Assembly: GCA_918797485.1 (NCBI GenBank)
Contig: CAKKNE010000001.1
Location: 4,898,001 to 4,962,000 of the forward strand
Source: Pelagomonas calceolata
Lineage: Eukaryota
Direction: 5' to 3'
Length of the DNA stretch: 64,000 nt
Part shown: piece after piece, positions 47,291-52,069 of the stretch
Numbering within the stretch: the stretch's first letter is position 1
Layout of the letters: every line of letters starts with the position of its first letter
Translations under genes and position numbers: made by a program
Notes under the pieces: generated by a model
The model's database searches: none
What the model was told of the DNA's origin: nothing
Seen by the model: the letters and a program-made list of their open reading frames with translations, nothing else

Positions 47291-47347
47291 GCGGAGAGCG
47301 CTACGACACGCGGAGAGCGCTACGACACGCGGAGAGCGCTACGACCC
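47291..47347 (+). repeat. 19-bp tandem repeat x3 immediately upstream of the ATG at 47351
   Basis: GCGGAGAGCGCTACGACAC repeated three times (last copy has one mismatch). Confidence 0.9.
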
Positions 47348-47350
47348 GCG

Positions 47351-48481
47351 ATGGACGTCCGCCCGCTCCTCGCGCAGCGCCGGGCGCCGCCAGCGCCCAA
47401 TCAGCACCTCTGGCGCGCGTTCGGCGCCGTCGCGCTGCTCCAATTCGTGACGCTGGCCGCGGTGCTCGCGTCGCGAACGGCTCCTGACGGCCGGAGGCAG
47501 CTGCTGGCCGACGAGCTCGAGCCGCCGTTCCGGAAAATACGCGAGGATATCGATCTCGGCGCCGACGAGCGGCGGCGGCTCAGCGGCGCGCTCTGGGGCC
47601 TCAAGACCGCGACGGCCGCCACCACGCTCACGAAGTTCATGGGTACCATGGTCCTCTGCGACACGTCGTCCGCGGCCATCACGGTGACGCTGCCGGCCGC
47701 GAGCGACATGTCCGAGCAGTCCGGCGCCTCGCTCCGCCACTACAAGTTCATCAACACGGGCAGCAACGACTGCACGGTCGCCCGCGCCGGGTCCGACACG
47801 ATCGTCACATCGACGCTGACCGCGACCTTTTCCGGCGGCGCGACGACGTCGACCTTCACGGGCACGGCCTTCACGCCCGCGGGGACGGTCTCGCAACCGA
47901 CCTTCACGGGAACGCAGTTCACGCCCGCCGGAACCATCTCAGCAATTACTCCCGCCGGCACCAACGACGCGCCGACGTTTACTGGTCAAGCGCACACCCC
48001 GACGTTCACCGGCGGTGCCATCACGAGTACGGTGACTCAGGGCACGATTACCACCGCCACGGTGTACACTGGGGCGGACGCCACGGCGACCACGACGGAC
48101 ACGGCGGTCGACGTCGTCACTGCGGTCGCGGCCAGCACCGTCGCGAGCGGGACCGCGAGCGGGACCATCTCGCAAATTACGCCGCAGGGAACCGTGGCCG
48201 CGCCGGTATTTAGTGGTACAGCGCACACCCCGACGTTCACGGGAACCGCGGTGACTCCAGGGGGGACGGTCTCGCAACCGACCTTCACGGGGACTCAGGT
48301 GACGCCCCAGGGCACGATTCAAACCGACACGCCCGGGGGCACGGTCGCGATCGTCAACGCCGCGACGGCGTCGACGGGCTTGACGGCGATCACGCTCAAG
48401 CCCGGGTCCTCGCTCGCGCTGGTGGGCGACGGCACGAGCGCCTGGTACCAGTACGGCGGGACGAGCATCGCCGTCGCGTAG
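47351..48481 (+). CDS. Membrane-anchored Thr/Gly-rich fibre-like protein, short paralog (8+8 modules)
   Basis: 376-aa ORF; single TM; RRQLL and RRRLS motifs; phage-fibre-like domain VLCDTSSAAITVTLPAAS...GSDTI // ITLKPGSSLALVGDGTSAWY split by FTG/PxG repeats. Confidence 0.85.
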   Translation: MDVRPLLAQRRAPPAPNQHLWRAFGAVALLQFVTLAAVLASRTAPDGRRQLLADELEPPFRKIREDIDLGADERRRLSGALWGLKTATAATTLTKFMGTMVLCDTSSAAITVTLPAASDMSEQSGASLRHYKFINTGSNDCTVARAGSDTIVTSTLTATFSGGATTSTFTGTAFTPAGTVSQPTFTGTQFTPAGTISAITPAGTNDAPTFTGQAHTPTFTGGAITSTVTQGTITTATVYTGADATATTTDTAVDVVTAVAASTVASGTASGTISQITPQGTVAAPVFSGTAHTPTFTGTAVTPGGTVSQPTFTGTQVTPQGTIQTDTPGGTVAIVNAATASTGLTAITLKPGSSLALVGDGTSAWYQYGGTSIAVA

Positions 48482-48783
48482 CAAGAGGTACTATACTTAT
48501 ATAGGGTAAGTACCTTGCGCGTAGGACCCCGCGTAACCCGAACGAAAATCAGGTGTACCTATCTCGTGGCGAGCGCTCGCAGGCCTCCCGACGACGGGTA
48601 GTCATCCAAAATGACGGCGCGAAGCCAGCGCCCAAGCACGAAGCCTGCGGTCCGGCGGAGGAGCGCTTTTGTGAGGGCTGCCGGTCGAGCAACGCTGCCC
48701 CACGCAGCCGCGATGGACCCGTGACACACCCATCATGGCGACCGACGCCAGGCATTGCCAGTGAGCGCCAGGCATTGACACCG

Positions 48784-50991
48784 ATGAAGGTAGCTTGCTC
48801 ACCCGAGGCCTGGCCCCCCAGGCGCCCCCCGGCGCCGTCGACGACGAGAAAGGTCTGCTCGCCCGTGGAGACCTGGCCCCTCCGGCGGCCCCCGGCGTCG
48901 CCCGAGGAGACCTGGCCCCTCCGGCGGCCCCCGGCGCCGCCGGCGCCCAACCGGCGCGTCTGGGGGGCCATCGGGGCCATCGTGCTGCTCCAGACGGCCA
49001 CGATCGCGGCGGTGCTCGCGCCGCGCCCCGAGACCGACGCCCGGCGGCGGCTGCTCGACGAGGAGATGATCGAGCCGCCGTTGCTCAAGGTCCGCGAGGA
49101 CCACGACCTCGGCGAGGTCGACGAGCGGCGACGGCTCAGCGGCGCGCTCTGGGGCCTCAAGACGGTGACGACCGCCACGACGCTCACGAAGTTCATGGGC
49201 ACGATGGTCCTCTGCGACACGTCGTCCGCGGCCATCACGGTGACGCTGCCGGCCGCGAGCGACATGGCCGAGCAGTCCGGCGCCTCGCTCCGCCACTACA
49301 AGTTCATCAACACGGGCAGCAACGACTGCACGATCGCCCGCGCCGGGTCCGACACGATCGTTACTTCTACCCTGACCGCGACCTTTACCGGCGGCGCGAC
49401 GACGTCTACCTTCACAGGAACGCAGTTTACGGCTACCTTCACCGGCGACCAGTTCACGCCCGTCTTTACGGGAACAGATTATACGCCAGCAGGGACCGTC
49501 TCCGTACCGACCTTCACGGGAACGCAGACGGCCCCGGCGGGCACAATCGGTGCGATTACACCAGCCGGCACAGTCTCGCAGCCCACGTTTACCGGCGACG
49601 CTTACACGCCTGAAGGCACCAACAATGCGCCAGCGTTCACGGGGACGCAGTACACGCCCACCGGAACCATATCGGCAATTACGCCAGCTGGAACCGTGGC
49701 CGCGCCGGTATTTAGTGGTACAGCTCACACCCCAACGTTCACGGGTGATGCAGTAACCCCAGCGGGAAGCGTGGCCGCGCCGGTATTTAGTGGTACAGCA
49801 CACACCCCAACGTTCACGGGTGATGCAGTAACCCCAGCGGGAGACGTGGCCGCGCCGGTATTTAGCGGTACAGCTCACACCCCAACGTTCACGGGTGATG
49901 CAGTAACCCCAGCGGGAAGCGTGGCCGCGCCGGTATTTAGTGGTACAGCTCACACCCCAACGTTCACTGGCGATGCAGTAACCCCAGCGGGAAGCGTGGC
50001 CGCGCCGGTATTTAGTGGTACAGCTCACACCCCAACGTTCAGTGGCGATGCAATCACAAGTACGGTGACTCAGGGCGCGATTACCACGGCCACCGTGTAC
50101 ACTGGGGCGGACGGCACGGCGACCACGACGGACACGGCGGTCGACGTCGTCACGGGGGTCGCGGTAAGCACTGTCGCGAGCGGGACCGCGAGCGGGACCA
50201 TCTCGCAAATTACTCCCGCTGGCACCAACGATGCGCCGGCGTTCTCGGGGACGCAGTTCACGCCCGCCGGTACCATCTCGCAAATTACTCCCGCTGGCAC
50301 CAACGATGCGCCGGCGTTCACGGGGACGCAGTTCACGCCCACCGGAAGCATCTCGGCGATTACTCCCGCTGGCACCAACAATGCGCCAGCGTTCACGGGG
50401 ACGCAGTTCACGCCCACCGGAAGCATCTCAGCAATTACTCCCGCTGGCACCAACGATGCGCCGGCATTTACTGGTACGCAGTTCACGCCCGCCGGAACCA
50501 TCTCGGCAATTACTCCCGCTGGCACCAACGACGCGCCGGCATTTACTGGTACGGCTCACACCCCGACGTTCACGGGTGATGCAGACACCCCAGAGGGAAG
50601 CGTGGCCGCGCCGGTATTTACTGGCACGGCGAAGGCGCCCGCCGGCACGGTCAGCCAGCCGACCTTTACCGGAGACGCGTTTACTGCGACATTTACTGGG
50701 ACGGACTACACCCCCGCCGGGACGATCAGCCAGCCGACCTTCACGGGCACCCAGACGGCGCCCGCCGGCACGATCGCCGCGATCACGCCCACGGGGACCA
50801 TCTCCGCGGTGACGCCCGCCGGCACGATTCAAACGGACAACCCCGGGGGGACGATCGCGATCGTCAACGCCGCGACGGCGTCGACGGGCTTGACGGCGAT
50901 CACGCTCAAGCCCGGGTCCTCGCTCGCGCTCGTCGGCGACGGCACGAGCGCCTGGTACCAGTACGGCGGGACGAGCATCGCCGTCGCGTAA
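48784..50991 (+). CDS. Membrane-anchored Thr/Gly-rich fibre-like protein, long paralog (27+27 modules)
   Basis: First in-frame ATG at 48784; same architecture and near-identical flanking domain as 47351-48481. Confidence 0.85.
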   Translation: MKVACSPEAWPPRRPPAPSTTRKVCSPVETWPLRRPPASPEETWPLRRPPAPPAPNRRVWGAIGAIVLLQTATIAAVLAPRPETDARRRLLDEEMIEPPLLKVREDHDLGEVDERRRLSGALWGLKTVTTATTLTKFMGTMVLCDTSSAAITVTLPAASDMAEQSGASLRHYKFINTGSNDCTIARAGSDTIVTSTLTATFTGGATTSTFTGTQFTATFTGDQFTPVFTGTDYTPAGTVSVPTFTGTQTAPAGTIGAITPAGTVSQPTFTGDAYTPEGTNNAPAFTGTQYTPTGTISAITPAGTVAAPVFSGTAHTPTFTGDAVTPAGSVAAPVFSGTAHTPTFTGDAVTPAGDVAAPVFSGTAHTPTFTGDAVTPAGSVAAPVFSGTAHTPTFTGDAVTPAGSVAAPVFSGTAHTPTFSGDAITSTVTQGAITTATVYTGADGTATTTDTAVDVVTGVAVSTVASGTASGTISQITPAGTNDAPAFSGTQFTPAGTISQITPAGTNDAPAFTGTQFTPTGSISAITPAGTNNAPAFTGTQFTPTGSISAITPAGTNDAPAFTGTQFTPAGTISAITPAGTNDAPAFTGTAHTPTFTGDADTPEGSVAAPVFTGTAKAPAGTVSQPTFTGDAFTATFTGTDYTPAGTISQPTFTGTQTAPAGTIAAITPTGTISAVTPAGTIQTDNPGGTIAIVNAATASTGLTAITLKPGSSLALVGDGTSAWYQYGGTSIAVA
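49684..50058 (+). repeat. 75-bp coding tandem repeat x5 (PAGSVAAPVFSGTAHTPTFTGDAVT)
   Basis: Five near-identical DNA units visible directly. Confidence 0.9.
50194..50562 (+). repeat. 75-bp coding tandem repeat x5 (GTISAITPAGTNDAPAFTGTQFTPA)
   Basis: Five near-identical DNA units; different sequence from the first array but same unit length and copy number. Confidence 0.9.
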
Positions 50992-51001
50992 GAAACTTGA
51001 A

Positions 51002-52069
51002 CTACTTCTTCTTCTTACCCTTCCCCTTTTTACCTTTCTTTCCTTTCTTGCCCTTCTTCTTCTTGCCCGACCGCGCGCGCCGCCCGCGGAACTGCGCCTG
51101 GATCCGCGCGATGCCCCGCTCCATGCGCGCGCGCTTCTCGTCCGCCTCGCGGTTCGCCTCCTTGATGAGGCGCTCCTCCTCGGCCTCGATTGCTAAATCT
51201 TGGTCGATGACGGCGTAGTACTCGGCGAGCTCATTATACTCCTTGAGCTCCCGGTCGTACTTTTCCCGTAAGTCGTCGACCTCGCCCTGGATTTGGAACA
51301 TATTCACGTCGTACTTCTCGATCGTCGCCCTCAATTCCGCCTCGACCTTGTTCCGCCGCCGCCGCCACAACAACAACTCGTCGGCCTGCTCTTGGAGTTG
51401 CACCGCGAGCTTGGCCTCGGCCTCGGCGATCTTGACCTCGTTCTCCTTGACCGTCTCCACGTGAATCTCTTCGTATTCCTTGATCTTCTCGTCGGCCTCG
51501 CGGTCCCTCAACGCCTTCTCCGCTTGCGTGGCTTTCTCGTGCTTCTCGATCTCGGCGCTCAGCGCCGAGCAGATCGTCGCGGCCGTGGCGCTGTCCTCCT
51601 CGAAGCGTCGGCGAGCCCTACTCTGCTCGGCCTCGACCGCGGCCTTCGTCTCCGCGGCCTGCTGGCTCTTCATCCGTGCTCTACTCAAATCCTCCTCCTG
51701 CCGCCGCTGGTGCTGCACCGTCTCGCCGAGCCGTCGCCCCACGACCTCCTTCAGATCCAATAAAGCGTCCACGAAGGCCTTGGACTCGGACCGGTCGTGC
51801 GCCCCGTACCGCTGCAGGACCGCGAACGTCCGCGGGCTATCCCTTAAACACCGGCAGACCTCCCGCGCCGACTCTTGGAGTGCTGCCGCCTCGCCCTTCG
51901 CCTCGAGCTCCCAGTGCCGCGAGAAGACGTCGTAGGGCCCCGGCTCCAATTCGGCCAACACCGCCTCGTGCGCGCGCTCGGGCACGTACGACAAGAGCAT
52001 GATGCGCTCGATCGAATCATCCAGGATGCTCACGACGCGGTTGCGCTCGGAGTTCGTGATCTTGTGCAT
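51002..52069 (-). CDS. DRC10: Dynein regulatory complex subunit 10 (IQCD)
   Basis: KITNSERNRVVSILDDSIERIMLLSYVP, long coiled coil, RRRNKVEAELRATIEKYDVNM, IQ motif IQAQFRGRRAR, Lys/Gly tail. Confidence 0.85.
   Translation of the reverse strand: MHKITNSERNRVVSILDDSIERIMLLSYVPERAHEAVLAELEPGPYDVFSRHWELEAKGEAAALQESAREVCRCLRDSPRTFAVLQRYGAHDRSESKAFVDALLDLKEVVGRRLGETVQHQRRQEEDLSRARMKSQQAAETKAAVEAEQSRARRRFEEDSATAATICSALSAEIEKHEKATQAEKALRDREADEKIKEYEEIHVETVKENEVKIAEAEAKLAVQLQEQADELLLWRRRRNKVEAELRATIEKYDVNMFQIQGEVDDLREKYDRELKEYNELAEYYAVIDQDLAIEAEEERLIKEANREADEKRARMERGIARIQAQFRGRRARSGKKKKGKKGKKGKKGKGKKKK

What the first reader, a model, noticed from the sequence alone, without database searches (positions are those of the whole stretch)
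47351..50991. Proteins written as a reverse-complement hairpin: a two-letter F/P module code with perfect antiparallel complementarity in two paralogs
Seen in sequence: the Thr/Gly-rich inserts parse into only two Gly-centred modules, F (xxF[TS]Gxxxx) and P (PxG[TS]xxx). They form two arms around a conserved tip, 150 nt Gly-to-Gly in both genes (STVTQG.ITTATVYTGAD.TATTTDTAVDVVT.VA.STVASGTA). Short gene: out arm FFPFPPFF, return arm PPFFPFPP. Long gene: out arm FFFFPFPPFPFPPFFPFFPFFPFFPFF, return arm PPFPPFPPFPPFPPFFPFPFFPFPPPP. In both, the return arm is the out arm reversed with F and P swapped (8/8 and 27/27). Gly-to-Gly spacing is 7 for F-to-P and 9 otherwise, so register is kept. Arm spans are identical: 47834-48011 and 48161-48338 (59 codons each); 49390-50044 and 50194-50848 (218 codons each). 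The irregular, non-tandem outer modules obey the rule too. Inference: each chain folds as one very long antiparallel beta-hairpin in which F modules pair only with P modules, probably oligomerising into a needle. At an assumed 0.33 nm per residue that is roughly 20 nm versus 70 nm, i.e. a length-programmable surface filament. I do not know of this pairing code being described in a eukaryote.
Basis: partly seen in the sequence, partly recalled or inferred. Interest (0 to 1): 0.95.

Follow-up and report, generated by a model that had tools for sequence, protein, structure and literature searches.

The report
Algal fold-back needle with pairing code
Two neighbouring genes of a marine eukaryote (likely an alga) encode proteins whose two halves match in mirror order under a strict two-motif rule that many phage tail-region proteins also follow; they are predicted to fold back into three-chain needles, likely about 25 and 70 nm long, that would project from the cell surface.

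Summary
Gly faces Gly in one gap-free register, module Phe faces Val/Ile/Asn, Pro mostly faces Ala/Gln. Relatives with other strings obey it (30/30, 5/5); one metagenome assembly does not (21 vs 18). The code is not alga-specific: 38 of 93 non-algal clusters, where checked in phage tail regions, are perfect against 1.7 expected. A trimer model of the short protein passes (0.79, best control 0.00) with its best contacts in the predicted register. The needle is inserted into a phage-type beta-sandwich (Z 11.4), behind a signal anchor and RRRL motif. The long gene is transcribed unspliced. It works like the T4 gp37 fold-back needle but lacks its His-x-His iron sites, so it is a new metal-free variant, here in a eukaryote. 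Function is inferred: a surface strut or adhesin of gene-encoded length.

The parts
47351..48481 (+). Short paralog ORF, 376 aa
   Evidence: near-identical proteins in marine assemblies
47417..47473 (+). Hydrophobic segment aa 23-41, likely type II signal anchor or signal peptide
   Evidence: Kyte-Doolittle 19-mer 2.04; kept in all 7 family members examined
47570..47581 (+). RRRL motif directly before the base domain, likely propeptide cleavage site
   Evidence: diatom RXL precedent in PMC5525289 passages
47582..47821 (+). Base beta-sandwich, N-terminal part (short)
47834..48013 (+). Out arm, modules FFPFPPFF
48014..48160 (+). Tip between the arms (50 codons Gly-to-Gly)
   Evidence: not in the confident interface of the trimer model
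48161..48340 (+). Return arm, modules PPFFPFPP (first module ASGT)
48353..48478 (+). Base beta-sandwich, C-terminal part (short)
48784..50991 (+). Long paralog ORF, 735 aa; transcript from about 48661 to poly(A) at 51004, unspliced
48964..49020 (+). Hydrophobic segment aa 61-79, likely signal anchor
49126..49137 (+). RRRL motif before the base domain (long)
49138..49377 (+). Base beta-sandwich, N-terminal part (long); 4 aa differences from the short paralog in 80
49390..50046 (+). Out arm, 27 modules, including a 75-nt tandem array (49684-50052, 4.9 copies, unit PFF)
50047..50193 (+). Tip (long); 4 aa differences from the short paralog in 47
50194..50850 (+). Return arm, 27 modules, including a 75-nt tandem array (50193-50540, 4.6 copies, unit PFP)
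50863..50988 (+). Base beta-sandwich, C-terminal part (long), identical in protein to the short paralog

Best explanation
The two genes encode proteins whose arms match in mirror order and are predicted to form homotrimeric, six-stranded fold-back needles rooted in a phage-type beta-sandwich, likely exported to the cell surface as rigid struts whose length is set by the number of modules. Shown: the mirror code, the insertion of the arms into a base built from both chain ends, transcription. Predicted (model): three chains run out and back; at each level three Phe (two before Gly, F module) pack on the axis with three Val/Ile/Asn (two after Gly, P module) of the antiparallel strands, Gly meets Gly, and Pro needs a small or polar partner, which is why F pairs only with P. 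Inferred: each added module needs its complement in the other arm, so length grows in matched steps (about 19-28 nm short, 56-80 nm long); the protein enters the secretory pathway by its hydrophobic segment and may be cut at RRRL; the conserved base and tip bind fixed partners, so the needle acts as a spacer in the cell covering (my odds for this role about 0.4; for the needle structure about 0.85). The parts were likely acquired from viruses and joined in the algal lineage.
For: Mirror register and residue pairing, including a finer rule: P modules with Asn after Gly-Thr/Ser face an F module preceded by VAAP in 12 of 12 cases and 0 of the other 57 pairs. L005 (755 aa) is 30 of 30 with the PFP and PFF tandem units in the opposite arms to the window's long gene; P0017/L002/L003 5 of 5; L001 8 of 8. 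Non-algal relatives: 38 of 93 clusters perfect vs 1.67 expected by shuffling, 20 of 74 irregular strings vs 1.18; reverse-swap beats mirror-without-swap 82:0 and direct copy 69:0; P-minus-F excess anticorrelates between arms, rho -0.80; P0159 has ten F out and ten P back with equal spans. Trimer model of aa 80-376: score 0.79, best of 3 controls 0.00; the mark was reached by 21 of 30 proteins solved as pairs and 0 of 23 solved as single chains; runs agree in at least 62% of contacts, pLDDT at least 78; 21 of the 25 best pairs have i+j 489-492 and the other 4 are self-contacts of F185, V307, V180, F312. Base: pLDDT mostly 70-92, Z 11.4, rmsd 1.9, 92 aligned to a phage tailspike C-terminal domain. 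T4 gp37 precedent: equal 50-residue stem halves inserted in a collar, stem Gly packing on a Phe core of another subunit (PMC6957217 passages). Base and tip change mostly at silent sites between species (e.g. base-N 3 aa vs 25 silent codons, tip 13 vs 21). Pelagophyte coverings have a fibrous layer with fibres perpendicular to the membrane, 40-50 nm in one genus (PMC12168098 passages).
Against: No experimental structure. AlphaFold2 monomers leave the arms unresolved (mean pLDDT 45 alone, under 50 over the arms with 17 sequences). The complex test is calibrated on dimers of microbes; on eukaryotes it was reached by 17 of 29 pairs but only 1 of 7 without an older solved relative, so the pass may come from memory of gp37-like needles; only 3 copies and only the short protein were tried, and the tip is not in the confident interface. 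L004 has 21 vs 18 modules (168 vs 143 residues, one 25-aa unit), and tip-less or unmatched forms (P0016, P0213, P0014) exist in assemblies; I read these as collapses over repeats shared by the arms but could not prove it. 55 of 93 non-algal clusters are not perfect, and the count rose from 24 of 95 when I relaxed the module pattern. Localisation, cleavage and the organism's name come from no call.
Confidence: 0.72

Rival explanations
1. Same needle, but used as a receptor-binding adhesin or decoy, as phage fibres are: the tip binds an outside ligand (bacteria, viruses, particles, mates) and length only sets reach.
For: Non-algal F/P needle genes lie among tail-fibre and lysis genes; the T4 tip binds LPS and OmpC (PMC6957217 passages); the two paralogs seem to be expressed in different conditions.
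Against: The tip is conserved between paralogs and species (4 of 47 aa; 6-13 of 47 between species, with 21-27 silent codons) and partly in needle-less P0217, unlike a tip under host-driven change.
Confidence: 0.3
2. Each chain is a two-stranded ribbon acting as a monomer, or chains assemble into another oligomer or an open-ended filament by swapping arms.
For: Only three copies were tested; the confident contacts are between chains; the arms are self-complementary, so swapping is sterically possible (inference).
Against: Self-contacts of F185, V307, V180 and F312 on an axis suit a closed trimer; the base's structural relatives include phage tailspikes and spikes, which are trimers by recalled knowledge.
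Confidence: 0.1
3. A disordered, O-glycosylated mucin-like stalk whose symmetry is a by-product of repeat recombination.
For: Arms are 25% Thr, 11% Pro; low monomer pLDDT; arms exchange DNA blocks.
Against: Block copying gives direct, not reverse-swapped, order (0 of 74 irregular strings perfect as direct copies); one-residue register kept over 218 codons; same rule in phage proteins; trimer model.
Confidence: 0.04
4. An artefact of DNA inversion or mis-assembly.
For: The arrays are longer than the reads that were laid.
Against: No inverted DNA between arms; reads lie without joints or indels; independent strings in other species.
Confidence: 0.01

Closest known systems
Needle (D10-D11) of the T4 long tail fibre tip, gp37, and its relatives in Felixounavirus Bas63 fibres
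   Same: Chain doubles back; equal stem halves (882-931, 960-1009) around a tip, inserted into a domain made of both flanks; six-stranded antiparallel trimer; Gly packing against a Phe core (passages of PMC6957217, PMC9659904, PMC12609058).
   Different: No His-x-His iron sites; register set by F/P modules; arms up to 218 residues against 50; base is a different phage beta-sandwich; eukaryotic gene with signal anchor; no sequence match in the PDB.
Uncharacterised phage and prophage F/P needle proteins (e.g. P0044, P0129, P0159, P0047)
   Same: Same module vocabulary and the same reverse-swap rule; some are inserted in gp10-C domains (PF21939) or tail-collar-like domains.
   Different: Usually longer spacers (13 and more) and bulges; other bases and tips; none of 177 carries the algal base motif; not described in the papers searched.
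Phage tailspike C-terminal / T4 gp9-gp10 N-terminal type beta-sandwich (PF25692-like; PDB 24qj, 7rej, 9ny6)
   Same: Fold of the base: Z 9.0-11.4, rmsd 1.9-2.5, 92-97 aligned; family profile hits T4 gp10 residues 53-121 at E 0.01; many phage and some giant-virus models in BFVD.
   Different: Split by a 180-540 residue insertion; below Pfam cut-offs.
Diatom RXL-propeptide secreted proteins (silaffins, Sin1)
   Same: Hydrophobic N-terminal segment followed by a stretch ending in RRL (PMC5525289 passages).
   Different: No other similarity; cleavage here untested.

Membership tests
T4 gp37-type collar-and-needle fibre tip | Long insertion into a domain formed by both flanking segments | tested here: met
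   alignment and model: base = residues 1-76 and 261-292 of the mature chain
T4 gp37-type collar-and-needle fibre tip | Two equal arms around a tip | tested here: met
   59/59 and 218/218 codons
T4 gp37-type collar-and-needle fibre tip | Homotrimeric six-stranded antiparallel needle | tested here: inconclusive
   model supports it (0.79 vs 0.00) but is a prediction, possibly from memory of solved needles
T4 gp37-type collar-and-needle fibre tip | His-x-His motifs binding axial iron | tested here: not met
   0 HxH in either protein
T4 gp37-type collar-and-needle fibre tip | Base has the collar (gp10-C/gp12/D10) fold | tested here: inconclusive
   base matches another phage beta-sandwich; collar chains not listed, which does not exclude them
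T4 gp37-type collar-and-needle fibre tip | Part of a phage or tailocin tail gene cluster | tested here: not met
   neighbours are kinesin, cofilin, kinase, GLTP and other eukaryotic genes; poly(A) transcript
Phage depolymerase C-terminal / gp9-gp10-N beta-sandwich (PF25692-like) | Fold | tested here: met
   Z 11.4, rmsd 1.9, 92 aligned, well above unrelated rows
Phage depolymerase C-terminal / gp9-gp10-N beta-sandwich (PF25692-like) | Pfam gathering score | tested here: not met
   no hit for the window proteins; unsplit homologs P0244, P0253 score 19.7 and 18.2 bits against a cut-off of 25
RXL-propeptide secreted proteins of heterokonts | Hydrophobic segment then RxL motif | tested here: met
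   7 of 7 family members examined
RXL-propeptide secreted proteins of heterokonts | Cleavage after the motif | not testable with these tools
   needs proteomics
Mucin-like disordered stalk | No fixed fold or register | tested here: not met
   fixed mirror register and confident trimer model; monomer models alone would allow disorder

The most novel reading that the evidence does not exclude
A virus-derived, metal-free needle with a readable two-letter (plus sub-letter) pairing code has been domesticated by marine algae as a membrane-rooted molecular ruler: the cell switches between a short and a long paralog to change the thickness or reach of its covering, and the code lets one write protein rods of any length from a string.
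Probability: 0.3. Interest if true: 0.92.

Novelty: new variant of a known kind. Interest (0 to 1): 0.76.

Why it matters
It turns a beta-fibre's register into a rule that can be read from sequence and tested by swap-and-rescue mutations, and that holds across algae and many uncharacterised phage tail proteins with no Pfam family. It suggests a design rule for rigid protein rods of chosen length. It is also a candidate case of phage fibre parts reused on a eukaryotic cell surface, and gives a first molecular candidate for the perpendicular fibres seen in pelagophyte coverings. How tandem expansions in two arms stay matched is an open, now testable, evolutionary question.

Tried and rejected
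No whole genome is held, so paralogs outside the window were not counted; the window holds two copies of the base. Pfam, NCBIfam and PDB sequence searches of the window proteins found nothing; PHROGs gave one hit at E 0.084. The Atlas gave only leads under 0.9, all viral clusters; a second Atlas look-up did not complete. Single-sequence AlphaFold2 was uninformative. Foldseek against the PDB had no match at E 0.001; the needle itself could not be fold-searched because no confident monomer model exists. tblastn of the arms against annotated phages found nothing (low-complexity filter on); P0044 found no viral contigs and one weak phage match. A DNA inverted-repeat origin was rejected. An endogenous virus insertion was considered: the 17 long window ORFs scanned show no viral families. 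Ice-binding was considered from Thr richness and dropped for lack of any test. Literature: nine searches found no description of an F/P pairing code or of this algal family; the original gp37 structure paper is not held, most subscription papers are not searched and no supplements were read, so absence from print is not established.
Full report
Observation. The region holds two tandem + strand ORFs, 47351-48481 (376 aa) and 48784-50991 (735 aa). Reading the chain against itself at i+j=492 (short) or 892 (long) needs no gap: 8 of 8 and 27 of 27 module glycines face glycines, each time F opposite non-F. In the long protein Phe faces Ile 12, Val 9, Thr 7 (spacer Phe), Asn 6 times; Pro faces Ala 32, Gln 14, Asp 2, Val 1. 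A finer rule appears over four algal proteins: P modules with Asn two after Gly face F modules preceded by VAAP in 12 of 12 cases and in 0 of the 57 other pairs; tandem copies inflate this count. The symmetry is not in the DNA: the longest inverted matches are at most 30 nt and unrelated to the register, and the arms share 0 inverted 12-mers but several direct 24-mers.

Is the gene real. Neighbours are ordinary eukaryotic genes. Stranded poly(A) reads cover the long gene from about 48661 to a poly(A) tail at 51004 without introns, joints or indels at 10% (2 raw runs of one sample; a third shows one 123-nt skip in 3 reads). The short gene is almost silent in these runs (depth 0-6) but in the contigs of run X10 (RNA by guess) its unique 5' piece has depth 214 against 7 for the long gene's; in X8, 16 against 34. 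Contig depth is a poor measure, so reciprocal expression is a lead only. The stretch occurs in marine metagenomes and metatranscriptomes. No call names the organism; a pelagophyte is my inference from GC of about 64%, habitat and gene style.

Relatives in algae. Near-identical 8/8 alleles are common (L001). P0017/L002/L003 have 5/5 (with a 9-residue F-to-P spacer, so the 7 is not universal). L005 has 30 modules per arm, 30 of 30 complementary (29 counted by script, the PGG module read from the printed mirror), with the PFP unit expanded in the out arm and PFF in the return arm, the reverse of the window's long gene, so matching arose again independently. Against: L004 has 21 out and 18 back, one 25-residue unit apart, and P0016, P0213 and P0014 lack the tip. 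These come from metagenome assemblies over repeats shared by both arms and are probably collapses; this is not shown. More distant proteins with the same signal segment, RxL motif and base carry other inserts without F/P modules (P0217, P0229, P0251).

Relatives outside algae. From I took 177 proteins (leaving out the 34 algal-type or fragmentary ones), grouped them at 65% identity into 96 clusters, dropped 3 with no parsable arms, and set the tip at the largest gap. With a relaxed module pattern 38 of 93 are perfect reverse-swaps (1.67 expected from shuffles); of 74 strings that are not simple alternations 20 are perfect (1.18 expected), none perfect as mirror or direct copy; reverse-swap scores above mirror in 82 and below in 0, above direct copy in 69 and below in 0; excess of P in one arm goes with excess of F in the other (rho -0.80). 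A stricter first pattern gave 24 of 95. Clusters are related, so the P values overstate. P0159 is ten F out, ten P back, in register. For 12 loci I scanned 53 selected neighbours: tail, head or lysis families turn up at all 12, tail or tail-fibre families at most; 18 IMG/VR contigs and 3 bacterial genome contigs also match. None of the 177 has the algal base motif, and none of 49 base homologs outside the algal family has an F/P needle, so the fusion is so far algal.

Structure. ESMFold2 on three copies of aa 80-376 scored 0.79, best of 3 controls 0.00; the mark was reached by 21 of 30 solved pairs and 0 of 23 single chains (on eukaryotes 17 of 29, and 1 of 7 without an older relative); runs agree in at least 62% of contacts, pLDDT at least 78. 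Of the 25 most certain pairs, 21 join out-arm and return-arm residues with sums 489-492 and 4 are self-contacts of F185, V307, V180, F312. That is the register read from sequence alone and gives the code a physical basis: axial layers of Phe from F modules with the beta-branched or Asn residue of the facing P modules. AlphaFold2 monomers do not fold the arms but fold the base from both chain ends, which matches phage tailspike, spike and baseplate beta-sandwiches (Z 11.4 to 9.0), viral models in BFVD (15 at E 0.001 or better, including two Pithovirus proteins) and, by profile, T4 gp10 residues 53-121 (E 0.01).

How it likely works. Shown: code, insertion architecture, transcription, purifying selection on base and tip. 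Predicted: trimeric six-stranded needle. Inferred: export through the hydrophobic segment, possible cleavage at RRRL as in diatom RXL proteins (PMC5525289 passages), base at the cell, tip outward. Because base and tip are conserved while length varies from 5 to 30 modules, I favour a strut of set length, for example in the fibrous layer of the pelagophyte theca where fibres run perpendicular to the membrane (PMC12168098 passages), over a variable adhesin; this step is weak (about 0.4 against 0.3). Arms grow by copying DNA blocks within and between arms, and selection likely removes or repairs unmatched steps.

Comparison and novelty. It works like the T4 gp37 needle (passages of PMC9659904, PMC6957217, PMC12609058) but is not a member: no His-x-His, no phage context, a different base. 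Passages of two fibre surveys (PMC12143355, PMC12923769) mention such needles and no pairing code. Nine paper searches (listings and abstract starts) found neither the code nor the algal family; the original gp37 paper and supplements were not seen. Earlier notes of this scan report mirror-coded fibres with other codes in marine phages (unchecked AI notes, not support), none similar in sequence; they suggest the principle recurs, which lowers its uniqueness, while the eukaryotic host and the passing trimer model are particular to this case. Verdict: real, new variant of a known architecture, interest 0.76.

Noticed in passing
window 47316-47605 vs 48664-48896: Paralog-unique pieces show opposite depth in different RNA sets (214 vs 7 in X10; 16 vs 34 in X8; long dominant in X21-X23), hinting at a short/long switch.
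   Followed up: partly
window 48713-48724 and 48735-48764: Two short upstream ORFs (3 and 9 codons) lie in the transcribed leader of the long gene (read; 5' ends near 48661).
   Followed up: no
window 47291-47350: A 19-nt tandem repeat (3.2 copies) ends just before the ATG of the short gene.
   Followed up: no
window 48859-48941: A 39-nt repeat encodes Pro/Arg-rich WPLRRPPA units before the hydrophobic segment of the long protein; the copy number varies among alleles.
   Followed up: no
window 51002-52069 (-): A 355-aa coiled-coil gene with a C-terminal IQ-like motif and Lys-rich tail (resembles dynein regulatory subunit DRC10, recalled; no Pfam hit) is transcribed convergently; its ORF ends at 51002, two bases inside the long gene's poly(A) site at 51004.
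   Followed up: no
L001 213-1646 and 1725-2354: Two long-type N-termini in tandem, the first on a short 8/8 needle: N-terminal regions and needles are shuffled between paralogs (also P0007-P0011).
   Followed up: partly
proteins P0229, P0251, P0217: Same signal segment, RxL motif and split base with different Thr/Ser-rich inserts of about 70-300 aa and no F/P modules: a wider family of hairpin-bearing eukaryote-type proteins.
   Followed up: partly
L030 4608-5375: An F/P needle gene sits between portal and head-maturation protease genes, suggesting a head fibre rather than a tail fibre.
   Followed up: no
L005 8529-10007 (-): A sigma-70 factor gene with an N-terminal extension near the needle gene, as expected for a nucleus-encoded plastid sigma factor.
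   Followed up: no
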